Below, in pieces: positions 55,210 to 64,000 of a DNA stretch of 64,000 nucleotides (position 1 is the stretch's first letter; every line of letters begins with the position of its first letter). The stretch is taken from positions 32,001-96,000 of the forward strand of contig JAHPZE010000006.1 in the NCBI GenBank assembly GCA_019058365.1, written 5' to 3'. Source of the DNA: Promethearchaeota archaeon (GTDB lineage Archaea; Asgardarchaeota; Lokiarchaeia; Sigyniarchaeales; SOKP01). The position numbers and the translations under genes were made by a program. The notes under the pieces were generated by a model. The model was given only the letters and a program-made list of their open reading frames with translations, searched no databases and was not told the origin of the DNA.

Positions 55210-56616
55210 TTAACCTAAATTTCGAAAGCTAGTAATTGTCTTTTGGAGTTTCTCAAGTAAAATTTTTATTTCTGAGTTAAATTCTTTGAATGGCTCCAAC
55301 TCCGTGTTCAGTTTCTCGATTTTTTCATTCGTATTAGTTTGTAATGAAGTTATAGATTTTTCAATGCTTTTTTCAATATTTTGAGCCAATGAGTTTACTT
55401 GAGTATTTGTATTTGTTAATTTAGATTGAAGATTTTTTATCAACTCTTCGATTTGTGAATTTATTTGCGTAGTCTCTTTAACCTTTCCAGATACAGAATT
55501 AATTACTAATTCCATCTCATTTTTAATATTTGATATATGACCTTCGATGAGAGTGTTTAGATTATCAATAAGATTATTCTTTGTGGTAGAGATATCTGTT
55601 ATGAATTCTTTATTTTTTTTAACTCGAGTATCAACATAGTTAGAAACACTTTTTTTAAACTCAATTATCGTTTCATTCAATGTCATATTGAACCAATTAT
55701 CAACTTTAATTATTCCAGATGATATTGCATCCTTCATTTTATTTACTGATTTACTAATATACTCAGTGCCTTTAGATGTTCCCTGATTTACATCTTTAAT
55801 CCAATCTCCAATTTGAGTTTTGACAATATTCATGAACATATTTGAGATTTTTTCTGTTCCTTGTTGTAAACCTAAAGCGACTGAGGTTAATTCAGGATAT
55901 TCTACAATTTCTTCTTCAACTGTCTGTGTTTCTTCTGTTTTTGGAATTTCTTGCAATTCTCCAAGAGGTTGTTCAACAAATTCATTTATTTCCTTAATAA
56001 GAATAGGATTTTTTTTTTGGAAATCCTCTGAAAATTTTTGCACCCACTTAAAATACTCTAATGAGTTTGGAATTTCAATTTTAAATGGTACCATATGATA
56101 TTTATCAGCTTTAGTATAATCATCTAATCTATAAATTTCAAATCCAAGATTCCCATCCTTCCCCATGAGTGTATGATCAAAAACTATACTAAAACCATAA
56201 GGAAATTCCTCCTTTTGGAAATACTGTAAATTTACTAAATCACTCTCACTGAGGTACAAACCCCAAGAAGGGTGAGAATGGTAATATCCTATTAAAGCAG
56301 ATGAATATTTTTTACTGATCTCAGTAAATAAATCATAATCATCTTTATCAAATCCGATTTCTGCTTTATCTCCATGTGTTATAGGAACAGCATTTTCTAC
56401 AAAGACTTTTTCTTCGATAGTATCATATTTTCCTACACAGACCCCCATAACTTCTATACTTTGTTCTAATTTATCATTACCAAAACGTAGAACATGAGTA
56501 AGCATGTTTCTAAAAGCTTCCTTCTTAATGAATATATTTCCTTTTTCAGATTTACTTGTATCATCAAAATTTTTTTGATTTATTTTTTGATTAGATTTTT
56601 TTTCAACCACTTTCAC
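55210..56616 (-). CDS. MPN+/JAMM isopeptidase domain fused to a long coiled-coil region
   Basis: EVMG; YHSHPSWGLYLSESD (HxH-x7-S-x2-D); heptad-rich C-terminal ~250 aa. Confidence 0.88.
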   Translation of the reverse strand: MKVVEKKSNQKINQKNFDDTSKSEKGNIFIKKEAFRNMLTHVLRFGNDKLEQSIEVMGVCVGKYDTIEEKVFVENAVPITHGDKAEIGFDKDDYDLFTEISKKYSSALIGYYHSHPSWGLYLSESDLVNLQYFQKEEFPYGFSIVFDHTLMGKDGNLGFEIYRLDDYTKADKYHMVPFKIEIPNSLEYFKWVQKFSEDFQKKNPILIKEINEFVEQPLGELQEIPKTEETQTVEEEIVEYPELTSVALGLQQGTEKISNMFMNIVKTQIGDWIKDVNQGTSKGTEYISKSVNKMKDAISSGIIKVDNWFNMTLNETIIEFKKSVSNYVDTRVKKNKEFITDISTTKNNLIDNLNTLIEGHISNIKNEMELVINSVSGKVKETTQINSQIEELIKNLQSKLTNTNTQVNSLAQNIEKSIEKSITSLQTNTNEKIEKLNTELEPFKEFNSEIKILLEKLQKTITSFRNLG

Positions 56617-58094
56617 TCAACCCTCTCTGTTTCCAATTTTTTTATCTTAGCTAATAAATCTTGATTTTCTTTTCTTAAATCTGTGAGATCATTTTGGAGC
56701 GTCTTGATTTCAACTTTTTGTGTTTCCAATTTGTTTTGTAGTGAAGTTTTTGAGCTCTCTAGTAATATTATAGCAGCTTTTAAATCTGATAGAAAGCTTT
56801 TTGATTCTTTATTTAAATTAATAAAAGTTCCTATGATTTTATTAACATTTTTTGTGAAAGTTCCAGATAAATCTTTTATAATATTATCAAATTTTTCTGG
56901 AATTGTGTATTCTATTGAATTAAGGCTTTTAGATAAATTTTCTATAATATTACTTTGTTCATCCAAACTTTTAGAAGATGCTAAACCTAATTTATTTATA
57001 TTAGTTAATTCATCTATTTGGTTATTAAATTGAATTATAATACTGTTGATATTTTCCTTTAATTTTTCTTCAACTATTGATTTAAATTGTCCATTAAGTT
57101 CAGTCTTGATATTATCAAATAGATCTTTAAAGATTTCTTGATCAGAATCAAATTCTTCAAATTTATCATCAATGTACATGTCCAATTCGTTTAATTTTTC
57201 CTTAAAGGAAAATTTAAAATTTTTTTGAAGATTAGAAATCCCCTCACTTAACCTGTCTTTTATTGTAATCACATCTTTTCTTATTTGTAAATTATTCTTA
57301 ACAGTAGTATTGATCAAATTTTCACTCCAAGAATTAAGAAATATGATAAATGGTGCGATAACAATTTCTAAGAACTTTGTTAATTCTGTATTGAGTGCAG
57401 ATAAGATTTTAGTAGAATCTAATTCCGGTTTCTTTGTAAAAATTTGGCTTTCACTTGGAAATGCAATATCTCCAAAAAGATCGGGCATTTCATTAATTTC
57501 CAATATAGGAGGCTCTTTTGAGTGAATATTATTTATTAAATTGATTAATTTTAAATAATATTCAATACTATCAGGAGGTGCTACAGACGCTTTTACCTCG
57601 TGATAACCTGACATTTGACCTTTGGCTGGATTATCTAATCGAAATGTACGAAATCCTAAATCTCCTGGTTTTTCTAAATAAGCATGGTCAAAAACAATTC
57701 CTATGGCACTAGGGTTTGGAGTTTGCCAACCAAGTTGATTACGTATATCTGTTGAAGAAAAGAAAATATCCAGTTCGGGGTGAGAATGGTACCACCCACA
57801 ACTAAACCAGTTTTTTTCAGCATAAGCAGCATCAACCATAGAAAATGTTACATAATCTTCTGGGGCAAATGCAACTTCTATCGCACCACCGTGTGAAATG
57901 GGAATAGCATCTTCAATTATAACATCTCTAATTCCCTTCTTATCTGGTTCACCTTCACCTAATGATCCAATAAGTATTCCCATTACTTCTCGGTACTGCC
58001 TTTTATCTCTTGCTTTATTTCCAAAACGAAGGACATGTAGAAGCATTTTATAATAAGCTTCTGGTTTAATAATAACAGTTTTTTCAGAAGTCAA
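56613..58094 (-). CDS. MPN+/JAMM isopeptidase domain fused to a long coiled-coil region
   Basis: EVMG; GWYHSHPELDIFFSSTD; GIVFD; coiled-coil C-terminus; 4-nt overlap with the next gene. Confidence 0.9.
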   Translation of the reverse strand: MTSEKTVIIKPEAYYKMLLHVLRFGNKARDKRQYREVMGILIGSLGEGEPDKKGIRDVIIEDAIPISHGGAIEVAFAPEDYVTFSMVDAAYAEKNWFSCGWYHSHPELDIFFSSTDIRNQLGWQTPNPSAIGIVFDHAYLEKPGDLGFRTFRLDNPAKGQMSGYHEVKASVAPPDSIEYYLKLINLINNIHSKEPPILEINEMPDLFGDIAFPSESQIFTKKPELDSTKILSALNTELTKFLEIVIAPFIIFLNSWSENLINTTVKNNLQIRKDVITIKDRLSEGISNLQKNFKFSFKEKLNELDMYIDDKFEEFDSDQEIFKDLFDNIKTELNGQFKSIVEEKLKENINSIIIQFNNQIDELTNINKLGLASSKSLDEQSNIIENLSKSLNSIEYTIPEKFDNIIKDLSGTFTKNVNKIIGTFINLNKESKSFLSDLKAAIILLESSKTSLQNKLETQKVEIKTLQNDLTDLRKENQDLLAKIKKLETERVE

Positions 58095-58320
58095 TGATAT
58101 TCACGATTTATGTTTTAGATTTAGTTTGTTAATGATCTATATATAGTTTAATTGGTTTTAAATATTTGAATAAAAAAATTGAAAATTATATCTGGTCTTC
58201 TAATTTATTCTGTATTGAGTCTTCTTTTTCAGAGTAAATTTTGATTCTCTTTCCTTATTCTCTTAAATTATTAAATCAAATAAAAAATAAAATAAGAATT
58301 AAAACAAATTTATTAAATCA

Positions 58321-58977
58321 TTAATCATGAGGTAATGGTTTACCACAGAAAGGACAGAATCGGAAGCCTAAGTCTTTACCACAATGTGGACAAAAAGAAC
58401 CTTCTACTCCTACTGGTGCTTTTTCCTCAACACCTTCTTTTGGTATTGAAGGTAACTCTCTTTTTGTTTTAAGAGTTGTAGCCGATGAGGCAGTACTAGG
58501 CAGTACCTCTTGTTTTGCCATCACTCTTTCCTTAAAAGCTTGTCTTCGTTCTTCTTCAAGTTCTTCTTGCGTTTTAGTACCTTCTGTTTTAACCCAACCT
58601 TGAACCTTGGGTCTTTTCAATTCACTTTCAGGAACCCTTTCCAATTCTACTTCTTTAGTTTCTGATATTGGAGCAACTACTTTTCTCTCATCCTTCTTCT
58701 GCAGGGCTTGTTTTACAAGAGCTTGAGTTGTTTTCATTACTTGATGGGGATTAATATTAGGGATTGCTACAGTCCTAAGAACCCAGCCTACAATAATATT
58801 TTGATTTGGAAAATCGCCTTCGACATCCTCATCTTTAAAAACATAAGAATCAATAATATCTTTCCCTTTTAACATGCGAACAGCCCATTTCTCATTAATT
58901 AATCCTAATTGCAGTCTATAAGATGTTCCAGGTACGCCAAGTTGGCTCGTTAATGGTTCGAATCCTCTCTCTGTCAC
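58321..58977 (-). CDS. Hypothetical protein with C-terminal double zinc ribbon
   Basis: CPHCG...CPFCG after a charged low-complexity linker. Confidence 0.7.
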   Translation of the reverse strand: MTERGFEPLTSQLGVPGTSYRLQLGLINEKWAVRMLKGKDIIDSYVFKDEDVEGDFPNQNIIVGWVLRTVAIPNINPHQVMKTTQALVKQALQKKDERKVVAPISETKEVELERVPESELKRPKVQGWVKTEGTKTQEELEEERRQAFKERVMAKQEVLPSTASSATTLKTKRELPSIPKEGVEEKAPVGVEGSFCPHCGKDLGFRFCPFCGKPLPHD

Positions 58978-59222
58978 TTCAAATCACTTTTTTTCACTAA
59001 ATTATATGAGATCAGTAATATTATAATGATAAATTTCGAATTTAAATTATTATTTATTTTTAAAATTTATCTTAAAGTTAAAAATTTTATCTGATTGATT
59101 AAGTTGATCGATAGTTAAAATGTTTAATTCTTATATTTTTGGTTTGGGATTAAAAACAAATAAATACAAATTATTCTATTATCTTGTAAAATACCATTGT
59201 TGAAAATAACAGGATTTTTATC

Positions 59223-60209
59223 ATGACTGTAATAATTCCAAAGAATGATTATTTAACTTTAGTGGCCGCAACTATTAGATTTGCTAATGCTCGTATTCCA
59301 AAGGATGATTGGTTAGAAGTTAGTGGCATCTTTACTGGAAGAAATGAAGGAGATGATGTATTCATAACAGAATGTTACCCCATCATGCATCAAGAATTAG
59401 ATAAAGATGCGGTAATTGATCAATATAAATGGAATGATGAAGATTATGAAGCTCTTTATATCATCGATGATGAAGCATTTTCAAGAGATCCACCTGAGTT
59501 TGTGGTCGGATGGTGGCATAGTCATCCTGGCTTTATTTGAACTGGATTTACCAGACTTAGCTAAAAGGTAATGATGAGTCACATCGATATTCGTACTACT
59601 CTATCATATCAACAAAATAATCCTTTGGCAATCTCACTAGTTTTTAATCCTACGAGACTTATTCGCCAGATCGAAGTAGCAAACAAAAAAGGAGATCCAG
59701 ATATACAACTAAAAAATGATCCTGGGTTTAAAATATTCAGGTTAGATGATATTAATCGAGGTCTTGAAGCATCTTATCATGCTATAGACTATAAAATTGA
59801 AGGATACGATAGTATGGAGCAATTGGTTACTTCAACTCAGAAATTTATTATCGATATTACTAATTTCTTCCCTAAGAATAATGTTCCACAAACTTATGAG
59901 AAATATATTGATGATAGAATAACTCAATTAAATTCATTATTCCAGGGAACTGAAGAATATTTAACCACATTGACCTATCGTGGTGAAAAAAAGAGAATCC
60001 CAGAAGTTATAGAAAATCAAAGCAAAGAAATTAGGAAATTTGTAGCTGAAACAATTATAAAGATTGAAAATATTAAGGAATTCATGAATTATTTAGAATA
60101 TAAAGAAAGAGAAACATTAATTCCACAAATCAAGGCTATAATAAACAAATGGGATGAACAAGTTGTTGGATTAGATAAGAGAATAAAAGAACTAAAGAAG
60201 AAATTTTAA
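59223..60209 (+). CDS. MPN+/JAMM protein, predicted two exons (59223-59534 and 59565-60209, 318 aa spliced)
   Basis: Track ORFs 59223..59540 and 59571..60209 are in the same frame; removing 30 nt gives EVSG...GWWHSHPGFKVMMSHID, an exact HxH-x7-S-x2-D. Confidence 0.88.
59535..59564 (+). other. Candidate 30-nt BHB-type mRNA micro-intron
   Basis: ATTTGAACTGGATTTACCAGACTTAGCTAA; central helix GGCU/AGCU, bulges UUA and AAA, exon-exon helix CCU/AGG; contains TGA and TAA in frame. Confidence 0.85.
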
Positions 60210-60333
60210 CCCTAATAATTTTCATCTTATTTTTAGTTTTGATAAATTTTTATTTGATTACGCTTTTTTTTGATTAATTATACGATTATTTTTAAAAAAA
60301 ATATCAGAGAAATTTTAGAATTTAGTCATTATC

Positions 60334-62538
60334 ATGAGAAAAATTAATTTTCCTTTTACAGCGATTCTTGGTCAAGAGAAAATGAAGATGGGGTTAATCT
60401 TGAACGTTATTGACCCTCAAATAGGTGGTATCTTGTTAACTGGTCAACAAGGCACTGGAAAAAGTACTGCTGTAAGATCTCTCGTAGAACTGATGCCTCA
60501 AATTGAAATTGTTGCGGGTTGTGAATTTTCATGTGATCCTAATTCAGATATTGATGATTTATGCCAAAATTGCATAGAAAAAAAGGAAAAAGAGCAAATA
60601 ACTACAGAATTCCGTGATATGTGGCTTGTAAATTTGCCTTTAGGAGTCACAGAAGATATGGTTTGTGGGAGTCTATCTATAGATAAGGTATTAACTGAAG
60701 GAATAAGAGCTTTACACCCTGGGTTACTCGCGAAAGCAAATAGAGGTATTTTATATGTAGATGAAATTAATTTACTCCAAGATCATATCGTTGACGTTCT
60801 TCTAGATTCTGCAGCTTCAGGTGTAAATATCATAGAAAGAGAAGGAATCTCTATATCGCATCCTTCAAGATTCGTTCTGGTTGGTTCAATGAACCCAGAA
60901 GAGGGTGATTTAAGACCACAAATAGCAGATCGCTTGGGATTAGAAGTTAGGATTAAAGCCCCTAGAGATTCAGAATTAAGAGCAGAAATAACTAAAAGGG
61001 TTATAGAATTTGATGATCATCCAAAAGAATTTATTAAAAATTTTGAAGATGAACAAGAAAAATTAAGACAACAAATCCTTAATGCTCGTGATATTTTAAA
61101 GGAAGTTCAAATCCCTAGTTCTGTATATGAATTTGTATCCAAAATTGTAAATGAGTTAGAGATTTTTTCTCAAAGAGCAGATATTACTTTTATTCGATGT
61201 GCGAGAGCTCATGCTGCTTTAAATAGTAGAAAGGATATAGTTGAAGAAGATCTTAATGTGGCTATGGATTTAGTATTCGAACATAGAATTCAATCACTTC
61301 ATTATGAAATGACACCGGTAGAAATTAAAGCAAAAATAGCTGAAGTATATGGCAAAATAAGAGAGGCTTATGAAAATACAAAAGTACTCCAACCCAATAG
61401 AGAAACAGAAGGCCCTTTAAAGCATTCAGATGAACATCAAAAAGAGTTTAAACGTCAATCTGTTGATCCTGATAAAGTTGACATCCCAGAATCCCAAGAA
61501 CAGAAATTACCCCCTCCAAAATACCCTGATAATAAAAAAAGAAATCCTAAACCCGCGGGAGGATGGAAAGTAAAGAATATTCCTTTTGATGATGATCTTA
61601 GATTTTTTGAAGATAGACAAGTGGCTATGCCATTTATATATAAGATGGAAAAGAAAATGACCTCTATCTTAGATAACATAAAAAAGGACAGAAAGATATC
61701 TGATTATGGTGGAAGAGGGATCGGTAGGAGAATCAAAATATCCTCATCCCAAAAGGGCAGATATGTATCTTACAGATCACCTATACGTGAACAACCAAAA
61801 AGTATTGCTTTAGATGCTACCATTAGGAATTATTTAAAAAATATTGTATATAACGAAACTGAAATTGATTTCCCTATTCATTTTAATAAATATGATTTAA
61901 TGGATAAAATCTATGAATATCGCGCACCTTTAGCTCTCTTCTTTGTTTTAGATAGCTCAGCATCAATGTATTACGTAATAAAACAAATGACAGACGTTAT
62001 ATTATCATTACATCGAGAGGGATATAGAAAGAGAGATAAAATAGCTCTCATTGTATTTCGAGGTAAGGATGCTATTGTATTACAGAATCCCACTGTAAAT
62101 TTTAACATGGCTATTAATAAATTGAAAAAAATTGAAGGTAAATCATATACTCCAATGGCAGCAGCTTTAAAGAAGGTATCTGAGCTAATAAAAGTTGAGA
62201 AATTGAAGGATAGAAATATTATACCTATAGTCTTTATATGTAGCGATTGTGGAGCAAATATTTCTGTTAAATATCCTGATTTAATAGCCCAAATTGAAAC
62301 GGATTATTCTTTAATTACAAATGAATTAAAAGAATTAACAAAAAAATTATCAAAACAAAATATCCATATGGTTGTGCTAGAACCAAAAAAATCCTATGCG
62401 ACACACGCTCTTGGTGTACACACATATTCAGCAGAACATATTAAAAAAAACTTTAAAAAATACGCGAATGCTCAGATTTATAAGTTTAACAAATATAATC
62501 CCGACTCTTTAATATTAGAATTGAAAAAAATTCTCTAA
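60334..62538 (+). CDS. Mg/Co-chelatase ChlI/ChlD-like AAA+ fused to vWA
   Basis: FPFTAILGQ, GQQGTGKST, YVDEINLL, GSMNPEEG, Pro-rich linker, MIDAS DSSAS..TP..SD. Confidence 0.88.
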   Translation: MRKINFPFTAILGQEKMKMGLILNVIDPQIGGILLTGQQGTGKSTAVRSLVELMPQIEIVAGCEFSCDPNSDIDDLCQNCIEKKEKEQITTEFRDMWLVNLPLGVTEDMVCGSLSIDKVLTEGIRALHPGLLAKANRGILYVDEINLLQDHIVDVLLDSAASGVNIIEREGISISHPSRFVLVGSMNPEEGDLRPQIADRLGLEVRIKAPRDSELRAEITKRVIEFDDHPKEFIKNFEDEQEKLRQQILNARDILKEVQIPSSVYEFVSKIVNELEIFSQRADITFIRCARAHAALNSRKDIVEEDLNVAMDLVFEHRIQSLHYEMTPVEIKAKIAEVYGKIREAYENTKVLQPNRETEGPLKHSDEHQKEFKRQSVDPDKVDIPESQEQKLPPPKYPDNKKRNPKPAGGWKVKNIPFDDDLRFFEDRQVAMPFIYKMEKKMTSILDNIKKDRKISDYGGRGIGRRIKISSSQKGRYVSYRSPIREQPKSIALDATIRNYLKNIVYNETEIDFPIHFNKYDLMDKIYEYRAPLALFFVLDSSASMYYVIKQMTDVILSLHREGYRKRDKIALIVFRGKDAIVLQNPTVNFNMAINKLKKIEGKSYTPMAAALKKVSELIKVEKLKDRNIIPIVFICSDCGANISVKYPDLIAQIETDYSLITNELKELTKKLSKQNIHMVVLEPKKSYATHALGVHTYSAEHIKKNFKKYANAQIYKFNKYNPDSLILELKKIL

Positions 62539-62558
62539 ATATAATTTTCACTCATATA

Positions 62559-63809
62559 ATGCATAAAATGGTTAAGAAATCAAATTCCATACTTGTTGTT
62601 GGATTTAATACACGTCCTTTAGCTTTTTCATTGAATAAAGCAGGTTATAATATATACGCAGTAGATTTCTTTGGTGATTTAGATCTCTATCCATATGTAG
62701 ATGATTATATTATTGTAATAAAAGCTTTGAAAAGTAATTATAACTCTTTAAAAGAGAAATATAGTATATTCTTAGCTCAATTTGCTTTAGAATTGCATCG
62801 CAAACATAGAAATGTAGATTTTTTATTAATAGGTAGTGGTTTAGATGATGCCTATAAAGAAAGGGAAAAAATCTTAGATGAAATTAAGAGTTTTAATACG
62901 ATTAGCGTCAATAATGAGTTACAAGTTATTAAAAAGTCAAGAGATATAAAATATCTTCTTGAATTTCTTAAATCCCTTGGTTATAAGGTTCCTTTATCTT
63001 TTTCTTTTGAAAATTTTCGACTTTTAAACGCAAATCTGGAATATCCCTTTATATTAAAAAAAAAGAGAAGTGCAGGTGGCATAAATGTCTTCAAAGTTGA
63101 GCATGAAAAGAAATTAACGTCTCTAATACGTATTTTAGAAAAGAAAAAGTTTATTCCGTCAGAATGGTTAGTTCAAGAATACATTGAAGGAATTCCCGTT
63201 AGTTGTACAGTAATTTCTGATGGAAAAGAGTGTGAAGTCATATCCATAAATCGTCAAATCATTGGTGAAAAGTTTCTTTATGCTCCAAAAGATTTTATGT
63301 ATTGTGGAAATATCGTGCCTGCTGGATTGTCAATTGATGAAGAAAAAATTATATCTGAGATTTCGATGCTTCTAACAAAAGAATTAGGTCTACAAGGGAT
63401 TAATGGGTTTGACTTTGTTTTAAAAGATAATTATCCTTATTTTATGGAATGTAATCCAAGAATTCCTGGATCAATTAGAGCTTCAGAATCTGTTCTGAAC
63501 TTGAATCTTTTAGATTTACACATAAAATGCTTTATACCTAATGAATGGAAAAACATTAAAAAATTGATTAAATCTACGATACCTAAAACTTTTGCTACAA
63601 AATTGGTATTTTTTGCTCCAAAAGATATAGAAAAAAGAATTTTATCAAAAATAAATAATCTTGAATTTGTTTATGATAAAACTGAGCCAACTAAAGATGT
63701 TTTAAAAGGGGAACCTTTATGTACTGTTTTATATGTTGCTAAAGATTATCTTGCATCTTTTAATGGAGCGAAAAAGATTATAAATGAAATCGAGAGAATT
63801 ATTGGATAA
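62559..63809 (+). CDS. ATP-grasp family ligase (archaeal, often linked to C1-cofactor biosynthesis)
   Basis: GFNTRPLAFS, DFFGDLD, SAGG, QEYIEG, YCGN, GFDF, ECNPR. Confidence 0.8.
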   Translation: MHKMVKKSNSILVVGFNTRPLAFSLNKAGYNIYAVDFFGDLDLYPYVDDYIIVIKALKSNYNSLKEKYSIFLAQFALELHRKHRNVDFLLIGSGLDDAYKEREKILDEIKSFNTISVNNELQVIKKSRDIKYLLEFLKSLGYKVPLSFSFENFRLLNANLEYPFILKKKRSAGGINVFKVEHEKKLTSLIRILEKKKFIPSEWLVQEYIEGIPVSCTVISDGKECEVISINRQIIGEKFLYAPKDFMYCGNIVPAGLSIDEEKIISEISMLLTKELGLQGINGFDFVLKDNYPYFMECNPRIPGSIRASESVLNLNLLDLHIKCFIPNEWKNIKKLIKSTIPKTFATKLVFFAPKDIEKRILSKINNLEFVYDKTEPTKDVLKGEPLCTVLYVAKDYLASFNGAKKIINEIERIIG

Positions 63810-64000
63810 TAGCTTTAATTTTAGCAATGTAAGATCCTAATTTTCTCTCGTCAGACTCGGGAACAGCAAGTGCTAAGACTCTGTTTTCATCTAAATCGTG
63901 GATTATAACAGAACCATTTTCCCCTCCTATAATACAGTATTCCATATGACTTTCTAGTAATACTCCAGATAAATTATATAATGCAGCAACCATAGCTGAA
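63799..64000 (-). CDS. Roadblock/LC7 domain protein, 5' end beyond the window
   Basis: ...SAMVAAL...EYCIIGGENGSVII...VLAL...KLG; frame stays open to the window edge. Confidence 0.8.
   Translation of the reverse strand, partial: SAMVAALYNLSGVLLESHMEYCIIGGENGSVIIHDLDENRVLALAVPESDERKLGSYIAKIKAIIQ

What the first reader, a model, noticed from the sequence alone, without database searches (positions are those of the whole stretch)
59521..59575. 30-nt intron splitting the catalytic JAMM motif, with protein-derived and RNA-structure-derived boundaries coinciding
Seen: the frame reads HSHPGF-I*TGFTRLS*-KVMMSHID. Deleting 59535-59564 restores HxH-x7-S-x2-D, the same spacing as the two intact paralogues next door. 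Independently, the RNA folds with exon-exon pairing GUCAU/AUGAU plus CCU/AGG, a 3' bulge AAA (59563-65), a central helix GGCU (59529-32)/AGCU (59559-62), a 5' bulge or loop starting UUA (59533-35) and an inner hairpin CUGG-AUUUA-CCAG. Cutting after the second base of each bulge gives exactly 59535-59564. The intron-side helix is imperfect, so the motif is a relaxed bulge-helix-loop. Both halves are otherwise intact, arguing against pseudogene decay. Inference: the activity of a deubiquitinase-like enzyme would be gated by splicing.
Basis: partly seen in the sequence, partly recalled or inferred. Interest (0 to 1): 0.92.

Follow-up and report, generated by a model that had tools for sequence, protein, structure and literature searches.

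The report
tRNA-type mini-intron in Asgard protease gene
A 30-base insert that breaks the active-site motif of a JAMM (deubiquitinase-like) protease gene in this Asgard archaeon is very probably a real intron cut out of the messenger RNA by the tRNA-splicing enzymes, a kind of splicing published so far for essentially one archaeal protein gene (cbf5).

Summary
Window 59223-60209 (+) encodes a JAMM/MPN protein. Its HxH-x7-S-x2-D motif is interrupted by 30 nt (59535-59564) that carry TGA and TAA.

Comparative data point to an RNA intron:
- Of 54 congeneric genomes (Promethearchaeota, i.e. Asgard), 12 carry an insert at this exact site and 38 have the uninterrupted site.
- Insert lengths are 29, 30, 31 and 32 nt, so most shift the frame.
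- Exact excision gives a 308-322 aa ORF in all 12.
- dN/dS of both exons is 0.06-0.11, the same as in intronless orthologues.
- The 4-bp central helix pairs in every sequence and shows compensatory changes.
- Seven relatives have a canonical 5' bulge and intron helix. The window's own version has an enlarged 5' bulge (relaxed form).
- EF-1alpha and Rpo1N in the same genome carry similar inserts.

No RNA data exist for this gene, so splicing is inferred, not shown. Regulatory "gating" is unsupported.

This scan has already reported the same intron class in other genes and genomes of this lineage. I found no paper on it for Asgard. I file it as a new member of a known kind.

The parts
59223..59534 (+). 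Exon 1 of the JAMM/MPN gene (codons 1-104, ends ...W-H-S-H-P-G-F). It holds the catalytic Glu (LEVSG) and the HxH zinc ligands.
   Evidence: ORF list and translation; Pfam JAB 1.7e-9; the Glu and HSHPG align with CSN5; orthologues start with the same MTVIIPK.
59535..59564 (+). 30-nt intron (AUUUGAACUGGAUUUACCAGACUUAGCUAA) with in-frame UGA and UAA; relaxed BHB (hBH / bulge-helix-loop) type.
   Evidence: Absent at exactly this position in 38 congeners. Homologous inserts of 29-32 nt lie at the same site in 11 others. Present in independent DNA contigs.
59565..60209 (+). Exon 2 (codons 105-318 plus stop). It starts K-V-M-M-S-H-I-D and supplies the Ser and Asp of the JAMM motif and a roughly 200-aa helical C-terminal part.
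   Evidence: dN/dS of exon 2 among intron-bearing lineages is 0.08-0.17.
59529..59532 (+). Central 4-bp helix, 5' strand GGCU (exon 1); pairs with 59559-59562.
   Evidence: MFE fold. 44 of 44 cells paired across 11 distinct sequences, with GC>AU and CG>UA double changes.
59559..59562 (+). Central 4-bp helix, 3' strand AGCU (intron).
59533..59535 (+). 5' splice-site bulge UU|A, cut after 59534. In the window it runs on into an unpaired stretch (59536-59541), so the bulge is enlarged.
   Evidence: It is a clean 3-nt bulge (UCA, UUA, UUC) followed by a 3-7 bp helix in G016, G042, G067, G056, G053, G001 and G014.
59563..59565 (+). 3' splice-site bulge AA|A, cut after 59564; canonical 3-nt bulge.
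   Evidence: AAA in 11 of 12 genomes and AGA in G042.
59521..59528 (+). Exon-exon (outer) helix, 5' strand GUCAU+CCU; pairs with 59566-59568 and 59571-59575.
   Evidence: Pairs 7-10 of this helix are invariant. The pair next to the bulge is kept in 7 of 11 sequences.
59566..59575 (+). Exon-exon (outer) helix, 3' strand AGG..AUGAU, with UA 59569-70 bulged.
59542..59554 (+). Intron hairpin CUGG-AUUUA-CCAG.
   Evidence: CG>UA and GC>UA double changes in relatives.

Best explanation
The 30 nt at 59535-59564 are an archaeal bulge-helix-bulge (tRNA-type) intron in the pre-mRNA of a JAMM/MPN metalloprotease gene.

Proposed mechanism:
1. The transcript folds so that the last exon-1 codons (GGC UUU) and the intron's 3' end (AGCU) form the 4-bp central helix.
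2. This helix is flanked by the 3' bulge AA|A and by a 5' bulge UU|A that is enlarged in this genome.
3. The genome's (alpha-beta)2 splicing endonuclease EndA cuts once in each bulge.
4. RtcB joins the exons and probably circularises the intron.
5. The mature mRNA encodes a 318-aa protein with an intact E...HxH-x7-S-x2-D site.
6. Unspliced RNA can only give a 105-aa fragment without the Ser/Asp half.

Shown here:
- the insert and its exact boundaries;
- its absence in most congeners;
- its homologues of 29-32 nt in others;
- covariation of the helices;
- purifying selection on both exons;
- presence of the enzymes.

Inferred: that EndA and RtcB act on this RNA, and that splicing is constitutive.

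Within the genus the intron is repeatedly present or absent between sister species. This implies precise losses, lateral movement, or both.
For: 1. Exact comparative boundaries. 38 of 54 congeners read ...CCN GGN TTY|AAR GTN ATG ATG with nothing in between. 12 have an insert precisely there, and no genome has both. More distant orthologues (38-45% identity) are uninterrupted.
2. Insert lengths are 29 (one genome), 30 (three), 31 (seven) and 32 (one). Most shift the frame, yet all 12 give a 308-322 aa ORF after exact excision.
3. dN/dS among intron-bearing lineages is 0.06-0.11 overall and similar in exon 1 and exon 2, with dS about 1.4-2. The median for intronless pairs is 0.092.
4. Structure. 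The central helix is paired in 44 of 44 cells with two compensatory pairs. Seven pairs show double changes, against 2.2 +/- 1.1 in shuffles (0 of 500) and at most 2 in slid controls. The BHB-constrained fold equals the MFE in 5 of 11 distinct sequences (G000/G005, G016, G042, G056, G053) and lies within 1.3-4 kcal/mol in the rest.
5. The third base of the exon codon that pairs with the intron is C in 10, T in 2, and never A or G in intron-bearing genes. In intronless genes it is A 15, T 17, C 4, G 2.
6. The K-V codons lie between the intron's terminal in-frame stop and the first ATG. They vary only synonymously (AAG/AAA; GTA/GTT/GTG).
7. Machinery. There are two EndA paralogues. One keeps Tyr/His/Lys, aligns without gaps to the A. 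pernix alpha subunit and has a Lys at the position of K44. The other has Ser in place of the catalytic His. K44 and the L1 loop confer broad specificity and are reported for Asgard (PMC5829648). RtcB is present.
8. Two essential genes of the same genome carry similar inserts with a 4-bp helix and 3-nt bulges: EF-1alpha (32 nt in the P-loop) and Rpo1N (30 nt in GHFGH|IEL).
9. The DNA is real: independent contigs carry the insert.
Against: - There is no RNA evidence for this gene. No RNA run holding the locus was available.
- In the window's own copy the 5' side is not a clean 3-nt bulge, and the intron-side helix next to it is at most 2 bp. The substrate is a relaxed form whose cleavage by an Asgard EndA has never been assayed.
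- The fold is not more stable than shuffled sequence.
- In three relatives with the relaxed type (G066, G047, G004) a competing hairpin is 2.8-4 kcal/mol more stable than the BHB fold.
- The covariation rests on 11 related sequences that are not independent.
Confidence: 0.88

Rival explanations
1. Split gene without splicing. The insert simply ends one ORF (105 aa). A second polypeptide starts at ATG 59571 (MMSHID...), and the two halves assemble into an active JAMM domain.
For: Both ORFs are intact. ATG-ATG follows the insert by 6 nt, and AAGGU upstream resembles a ribosome-binding site. Selection on both halves would also fit two separately translated pieces.
Against: - It does not explain the 4-bp helix between exon-1 codons and the intron end with compensatory changes. 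It does not explain the fixed 3-nt bulges at the exact junctions, or the narrow 29-32 nt length.
- The K-V codons upstream of the ATG, preceded by an in-frame stop, change only synonymously.
- ATGATG and AAGGT are equally present in the 38 intronless genes, so they are codons and not signals.
- The cut would separate the zinc ligands HxH from Asp.
Confidence: 0.05
2. Translational recoding. The ribosome bypasses the insert (hopping as in phage T4 gene 60), or reads through or frameshifts across it.
For: The insert is short, contains a hairpin, and has a stop codon near its start in the window.
Against: - There are no matching take-off and landing codons. Exon 1 ends in TTT/TTC, and the triplet before exon 2 is TAA/TAG in all 12.
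- Read-through cannot work for the 29-, 31- and 32-nt versions.
- A single frameshift would still meet stops inside the inserts, for example the TAG in G016.
- The covarying helix geometry is that of an EndA substrate.
Confidence: 0.03
3. Pseudogene. A JAMM paralogue inactivated by a 30-nt insertion is decaying, and its function is covered by the two neighbours.
For: Two stops lie in the catalytic motif. Two intact paralogues are adjacent and more exist elsewhere.
Against: - Twelve genomes, in at least six separate places on the gene tree, keep the interrupted gene. None has any other stop or frameshift.
- dN/dS is about 0.1 on both sides at saturated dS.
- The insert itself evolves by compensatory changes.
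Confidence: 0.02
4. Assembly or sequencing artefact.
For: The genome is a metagenome-assembled draft with 6.6% estimated contamination.
Against: The same 30 nt lie in contigs of another sample and of an unrelated study, with no gaps. They are also in G005 and G066, and as diverged homologues in nine further assemblies from several projects.
Confidence: 0.005

Closest known systems
cbf5 pre-mRNA intron of Crenarchaeota (Aeropyrum, Sulfolobales, Desulfurococcales; Watanabe 2002, Yoshinari 2006, Yokobori 2009 = PMC2738675)
   Same: A BHB-type intron inside a protein-coding gene. It is removed, experimentally for cbf5, by a hetero-oligomeric splicing endonuclease. It is lineage-specific, with secondary losses. 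Gene callers see two ORFs.
   Different: The host lineage is Asgard/Promethearchaeota and the host gene is a JAMM protease. The presence/absence pattern is far more dynamic: at least 6-8 changes within one genus, against about two losses for cbf5. Two structural variants exist, canonical on the intron side or relaxed. It is one of several such introns in the same genome. Splicing is not yet shown.
Non-canonical archaeal tRNA introns with relaxed motifs (hBH, HBh', BHL), cleaved by (alpha-beta)2 and epsilon2 EndA (PMC5829648); the intron-rich tRNA genes of Asgard archaea (PMC11291895; bioRxiv 10.64898/2026.10.13.758758)
   Same: Same motif geometry: a 4-bp helix with cuts after the second bulge base. 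Same size class (about 15-50 nt) and same enzymes. The relaxed forms need the L1/CSL loop lysine, which this genome's alpha subunit has.
   Different: The exon context is an mRNA coding sequence, not a tRNA body. The exon half of the motif therefore has to be built from codons, which is visible as a codon third-base constraint.
HAC1/XBP1 unconventional mRNA splicing in eukaryotes (IRE1 cleavage; RtcB ligation in metazoa) (my own knowledge; mentioned in PMC5435141 and PMC8718801 abstracts)
   Same: Non-spliceosomal removal of a very short intron (26 nt in XBP1) from an mRNA by a protein endonuclease. RtcB-type ligation follows, and the splice changes the reading frame.
   Different: The endonuclease is different (the IRE1 kinase/RNase recognises twin stem-loops, not a BHB). 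That splice is regulated by stress. No regulation is shown here.
CSN5 / Rpn11 (eukaryotic JAMM isopeptidases), the closest solved relatives of the host protein
   Same: MPN+ fold signature E...HSHPG...S..D. Best PDB matches are CSN5 at 8.5e-5 and Rpn11 at 1e-3.
   Different: Identity is low. There is a different, roughly 200-aa helical C-terminal extension. The substrate is unknown. The gene lies next to two MPN-coiled-coil paralogues, not in a recognisable ubiquitin operon.

Membership tests
Archaeal BHB (EndA-dependent) intron in a pre-mRNA | [quoted passage not shown] | tested here: met
   In the window the central helix is 4 bp (GU, GC, CG, UA), the 3' bulge is AAA and the outer helix is 3+5 bp. 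The 5' bulge is enlarged, which makes it the relaxed hBH/BHL form. Seven congeners have both 3-nt bulges and an intron helix of 3-7 bp.
Archaeal BHB (EndA-dependent) intron in a pre-mRNA | Cuts after the second base of each bulge give a junction that restores the gene product | tested here: met
   The predicted junction TTT|AAG equals the sequence of 38 intronless orthologues. All 12 interrupted genes become full ORFs. G047 and G053 fix the register to the nucleotide.
Archaeal BHB (EndA-dependent) intron in a pre-mRNA | Helices maintained by compensatory evolution | tested here: met
   Seven pairs show double changes against 2.2 +/- 1.1 in shuffles (0 of 500). The central helix is 100% paired. 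Caveat: only 11 related sequences.
Archaeal BHB (EndA-dependent) intron in a pre-mRNA | Host encodes a splicing endonuclease able to cut relaxed motifs, and an RtcB ligase | tested here: met
   The alpha subunit keeps Tyr/His/Lys and has a Lys aligned to A. pernix K44. The beta-like paralogue lacks the catalytic His. RtcB matches at 568 bits.
Archaeal BHB (EndA-dependent) intron in a pre-mRNA | Spliced RNA observed, or cleavage by EndA shown in vitro | not testable with these tools
No RNA run holding this locus was available.
JAMM/MPN+ metalloprotease | MPN fold with E-x(n)-H-x-H-x7-S-x2-D | tested here: met
   Pfam JAB matches at 38 bits against a cut-off of 22.5. Glu and HSHPG align with CSN5. 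The x7-S-x2-D spacing exists only after removal of 59535-59564.
JAMM/MPN+ metalloprotease | Isopeptidase (deubiquitinase or desampylase-like) activity | not testable with these tools
   Only sequence similarity is available. There is no ubiquitin-like gene next to it in the stretch examined (56000-64000).
Programmed translational bypassing (T4 gene 60 type) | Matching take-off and landing codons flanking the gap | tested here: not met
   The take-off codon would be TTT/TTC. The triplet before exon 2 is TAA/TAG in all 12.
Self-splicing group I / group II intron | Ribozyme core of hundreds of nucleotides; Rfam model match | tested here: not met
   The insert is 30 nt. There is no Rfam match at the site or anywhere in the window.
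Stop-codon reassignment / selenocysteine | In-frame stops read as residues; insert length a multiple of three | tested here: not met
   The window's insert has both TGA and TAA. Nine of the 12 inserts are 29, 31 or 32 nt. The insert aligns to a gap in all homologues.

The most novel reading that the evidence does not exclude
The intron is one copy of a class of mobile, EndA-spliced mini-introns that populate protein-coding genes of Promethearchaeota (Asgard archaea), often inside the most conserved motifs, and that move between lineages independently of their exons.

Support from this locus:
- Presence or absence flips between sister species (G056/G012, G067/G018, G001/G024).
- The window's intron is 90% identical to those of G047 and G004, whose exons are saturated at fourfold sites (0.41). 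Its nearest exon relative, G053 (0.62), carries the other intron type (65% identical).
- The flanks follow the exon tree, so any transferred tract is about 50 nt or less.

If true, the closest archaeal relatives of eukaryotes would have a dynamic population of protein-spliced mRNA introns.
Probability: 0.3. Interest if true: 0.9.

Novelty: new member of a known kind. Interest (0 to 1): 0.72.

Why it matters
Endonuclease-spliced introns in archaeal protein genes have been treated as a curiosity of one gene (cbf5) in Crenarchaeota. Here a second kind of host gene, in the archaeal lineage closest to eukaryotes, depends on the tRNA-splicing machinery to make an active enzyme. The intron is polymorphic across 54 congeneric genomes. 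That gives a natural experiment on intron gain, precise loss and possibly transfer.

With the EF-1alpha and Rpo1N inserts in the same genome, it shows three things:
- mRNA splicing by EndA/RtcB is a routine part of gene expression in these organisms;
- standard gene callers mis-annotate such genes as fragments or pseudogenes;
- coding sequence is visibly shaped by the need to form the splice motif (the codon third-base constraint).

It makes directly testable whether protein-catalysed mRNA splicing, as in XBP1/HAC1, has roots in the archaeal ancestor.

Tried and rejected
- RNA evidence: the run search listed 20 DNA-type metagenome runs and no RNA holder. Expression and splicing could therefore not be examined. 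Run X3 gave no contigs on the stretch, and X1 gave only fragments.
- Thermodynamic significance: z-scores of the folds range from -2.4 to +0.7. I did not use them as evidence.
- Genome-wide census: a scan required a 4-bp central helix, a 3-bp outer helix and fusion of two ORFs of at least 60 codons. It gave 4828 hits against 4759 in a mis-registered null. Adding an inner-helix filter did not enrich it. It recovers this intron but misses EF-1alpha and Rpo1N, so it cannot count introns. Other candidates in the window look like ordinary gene boundaries.
- Repeat family: blastn-short of the intron plus flanks finds no other copy in the genome.
- Rfam: nothing at the site.
- Rejected on the evidence: read-through with another genetic code, hopping, frameshifting, pseudogene and artefact (see rivals).
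- Regulated 'gating' of protease activity by splicing: nothing supports it. It remains a speculation.
- NCBIfam gave no useful family for the host protein.
Full report
**1. What is there**

The + strand ORF starting at ATG 59223 reads ...PEFVVGWWHSHPGF. It then runs into I-TGA (59538-40). In the same frame it continues TGFTRLS-TAA (59562-64) and then KVMMSHIDIRTT... down to the stop at 60207-09. Pfam assigns the read-through translation to JAB/MPN at 38 bits against a cut-off of 22.5. The closest solved proteins are CSN5 and Rpn11. In the CSN5 alignment the ten read-through residues face a ten-residue gap, and the catalytic Glu and HSHPG align. Deleting 59535-59564 gives H-S-H-PGFKVMM-S-HI-D. 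This is the spacing in the two paralogues on the other strand, HSHPELDIFFSSTD and HSHPSWGLYLSESD.

**2. The RNA fold**

- GUCAU/AUGAU and CCU/AGG between the exons;
- GGCU (59529-32) with AGCU (59559-62);
- a 3-nt bulge AAA (59563-65);
- the hairpin CUGG-AUUUA-CCAG;
- an unpaired 5' side beginning UUA (59533-35).

The strand order matches canonical archaeal substrates: outer helix, central helix, bulge, and the same again on the other strand. In a pre-tRNA the 3' bulge abuts the anticodon stem and each cut falls after the second bulge base. That part is my own knowledge of the motif; the definition is also given in PMC5829648. The fold is not more stable than shuffled sequence (z -0.79), so only the geometry counts. 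In this genome, the required 4+3 base pairs in the required register occur at 0.16% of random positions for lengths 29-32.

**3. The insert is real DNA**

A contig from a second sample of the source study covers 59281-59606 with no difference. A 3988-nt contig from an unrelated salt-marsh study covers 59223-60043 with ten substitutions, no gap, and no change inside the insert.

**4. Relatives decide the matter**

The window lies in a 4.74-Mb draft genome of a Promethearchaeota (Asgard) archaeon. I searched all 54 genomes of its genus with two patterns.
- 38 read TGGTGGCAY NNN CAY CCN GNN TTY | ARR RTN ATG ATG with nothing between Phe and Lys.
- 12 have 29-32 nt there.
- Four match neither pattern, and none matches both.
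- Orthologues in other genera of the order (38-45% identity) are uninterrupted.

The inserts are homologous to one another. Their lengths are 29 (G001), 30 (G000, G005, G042), 31 (G004, G016, G047, G053, G056, G066, G067) and 32 (G014). Nine of the twelve therefore shift the frame. Yet exact excision gives a 308-322 aa ORF in every case, with no other stop or frameshift.

Pairwise dN/dS among intron-bearing lineages is 0.06-0.11 at dS of about 1.4-2. Values are alike for exon 1 and exon 2 and equal to intronless pairs, whose median is 0.092. A gene that has stayed under this selection on both sides of a frame-shifting insert, in many lineages, must have the insert removed before or during decoding.

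**5. The removal signal is a BHB**

I aligned the 11 distinct versions and counted pairs.
- The central helix is paired in 44 of 44 cells.
- Two of its four pairs change by double substitution. GGC/AGCU becomes GGU/AACU in G004 and G014, and GAC/AGUU in G001. G066 has a GC-to-GU change.
- Five pairs of the intron helices also show double changes.
- In all, 7 pairs covary, against 2.2 +/- 1.1 in column shuffles (0 of 500) and at most 2 when partners are slid.

One strand of the central helix is coding, so the intron leaves a mark on codon usage. The third base of the Gly/Asp codon is C in 10, T in 2, and never A or G in intron-bearing genes. In intronless genes it is A 15, T 17, C 4, G 2.

There are two structural types.
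- Type A (G016, G042, G067, G056, G053, G001, G014) has a clean 3-nt 5' bulge (UCA, UUA, UUC). A 3-7 bp intron helix follows directly. The exon helix next to the 3' bulge is weak, which is the HBh' character.
- Type B is the window's type (G000, G005, G066, G047, G004). It has a good exon helix, but its 5' bulge is enlarged to 5-7 nt, which is the hBH or bulge-helix-loop character.

The BHB-constrained fold equals the MFE in G000/G005, G016, G042, G056 and G053. It lies 1.3-4 kcal/mol above the MFE in the others.

The window's junction could slide by one base, because A59535 equals A59565. G047's intron starts with G and G053's with C, which fixes the register at the BHB-predicted cuts.

The K and V codons lie between the intron's last triplet, an in-frame TAA or TAG in all 12, and the first ATG. 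They change only synonymously. This argues against a separately translated second half.

**6. The enzymes**

The genome has two tRNA_int_endo genes.
- The 198-aa protein on contig 26 best matches the catalytic alpha subunit of the Aeropyrum pernix heterotetramer (1e-35). It keeps Tyr/His/Lys and aligns without a gap through the Crenarchaea-specific loop, with a Lys opposite A. pernix K44.
- The 206-aa protein on contig 12 has Ser where the catalytic His should be. That fits a structural beta subunit.

According to PMC5829648, this loop lysine gives (alpha-beta)2 enzymes their ability to cut relaxed hBH and HBh' motifs. The same paper reports the loop as present in Asgard EndA. RtcB is present at 568 bits.

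**7. Context in the same genome**

Earlier notes of this scan list BHB-like inserts in other genes of this genome. I checked two myself.
- EF-1alpha is interrupted inside the P-loop, GHIDHGK|STMMG, by 32 nt. It has a central helix AUGG/CCAU and bulges AA|A and AG|A.
- Rpo1N is interrupted in GHFGH|IEL by 30 nt. It has a central helix GGAC/GUCU, bulges AU|U and AA|A, and a 6-bp intron helix.

Neither gene can be a pseudogene. ARAGORN finds only 30 tRNA genes, 19 of them with introns. That fits the heavily interrupted tRNA genes described for Asgard archaea (PMC11291895; bioRxiv 10.64898/2026.10.13.758758). Other follow-ups of this scan report the same intron class in radA, dnaG (with a spliced message in public RNA data), RNase HII, Roadblock and two enzyme genes of related genomes. 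Those are unchecked notes. They show that the scan has found this class before on other DNA.

**8. Evolution**

On a maximum-likelihood tree of 29 orthologous coding sequences with introns removed, presence or absence needs 8 changes, and at least 6 are forced by well-supported branches. Intron-bearing and intronless genes are sisters at short distances: G056/G012, G067/G018 and G001/G024. Either the intron is old in the genus and has been lost precisely many times, as proposed on a smaller scale for cbf5 (PMC2738675), or it also spreads.

One observation favours some lateral movement. The window's type B intron is 90% identical to those of G047 and G004, whose exons share only 41% of fourfold sites with it, which is saturation. 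Its nearest exon relative, G053 (62% at fourfold sites), has a type A intron that is only 65% identical. The flanking codons of G000 follow G053, for example the AGT serine codons. A transferred tract would therefore be about 50 nt or less. With 31-nt sequences this is a lead, not a result. The intron has no other copy in the genome.

**9. Rivals**

- Pseudogene and artefact are excluded by sections 3 and 4.
- Read-through or reassigned stops cannot handle the 29-, 31- and 32-nt inserts.
- Hopping lacks matching take-off and landing codons.
- A split gene translated as two polypeptides explains selection on both halves. It does not explain the covarying helix, the fixed bulges, the narrow length range or the K-V codons.
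- Self-splicing is excluded by size and by Rfam.

**10. What is not shown**

No RNA data were available, so splicing of this mRNA is inferred. No Asgard EndA has been assayed on any substrate. The competing hairpin in three type B relatives could in principle modulate efficiency, but nothing indicates regulation. The protein's substrate is unknown.

**11. Comparison and novelty**

The mechanism is that of the crenarchaeal cbf5 intron and of non-canonical tRNA introns. All defining features that sequence can test are met. The experimental one is open. Searches of the paper library for BHB introns in protein-coding genes of Asgard archaea returned only work on tRNA introns and EndA. This does not prove that nothing is published. 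I classify it as a new member of a known kind: a new host gene and a new lineage. It has an unusually rich comparative record and a hint of mobility.

Noticed in passing
L032:1467-1498 (= G000 contig 52, 30988-31019): EF-1alpha of the same genome is interrupted inside the P-loop (GHIDHGK|STMMG) by a 32-nt insert. It has a central helix AUGG/CCAU and bulges AA|A and AG|A. The Pfam match starts only at model position 17.
   Followed up: partly
L043:1714-1743 (= G000 contig 52, 2085-2114): RNA polymerase subunit Rpo1N (A') is interrupted in CxGHFGH|IEL by an in-frame 30-nt insert ending in TAA. It has a central helix GGAC/GUCU, 3-nt bulges and a 6-bp intron helix, and no exon helix next to the bulge.
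   Followed up: partly
window 59535-59564 versus L048, L047 and L049 (G047, G004, G053): Intron similarity does not follow exon similarity. The window's intron is 90% identical to those of two species whose exons are saturated at fourfold sites (0.41). It is only 65% identical to that of its nearest exon relative (0.62). The flanks follow the exon tree. This suggests lateral movement of the intron alone, or short-patch conversion.
   Followed up: partly
window 59529-59531 and the same codon in 50 congeners: The third base of the Gly/Asp codon that pairs with the intron is C in 10 and T in 2 intron-bearing genes. In intronless genes it is A 15, T 17, C 4, G 2. This is a coding-sequence footprint of the splice motif.
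   Followed up: yes
window 55210-58094 (-) and 59223-60209 (+): Three MPN/JAMM genes sit together. Two of them (468 and 493 aa, overlapping by 4 nt at 56613-56616) have long coiled-coil tails. The intron-bearing gene is divergently oriented. The arrangement is conserved in congeners (e.g. G017, G020, G009). A Zn-ribbon gene (58321-58977, -) lies between them, and a ChlI-like AAA+/VWA gene (60334-62538, +) follows.
   Followed up: no
whole genome G000; window 1-64000: ARAGORN finds only 30 tRNA genes in 4.74 Mb, 19 with introns and none in the window. Rfam finds nothing in the window at gathering scores. Many tRNA genes are probably too interrupted to be recognised.
   Followed up: no
L028:1453-2049 (-) and L029:1420-2040 (-): There are two EndA paralogues. 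The alpha keeps the catalytic triad and has a Lys aligned to A. pernix K44. The beta-like one has Ser at the catalytic His position. This is the (alpha-beta)2 architecture with the broad-specificity loop.
   Followed up: yes
L047, L048, L053 (G004, G047, G066): In three type B relatives a competing hairpin, which uses part of the central-helix strand, is 2.8-4 kcal/mol more stable than the BHB fold. It may lower splicing efficiency.
   Followed up: no
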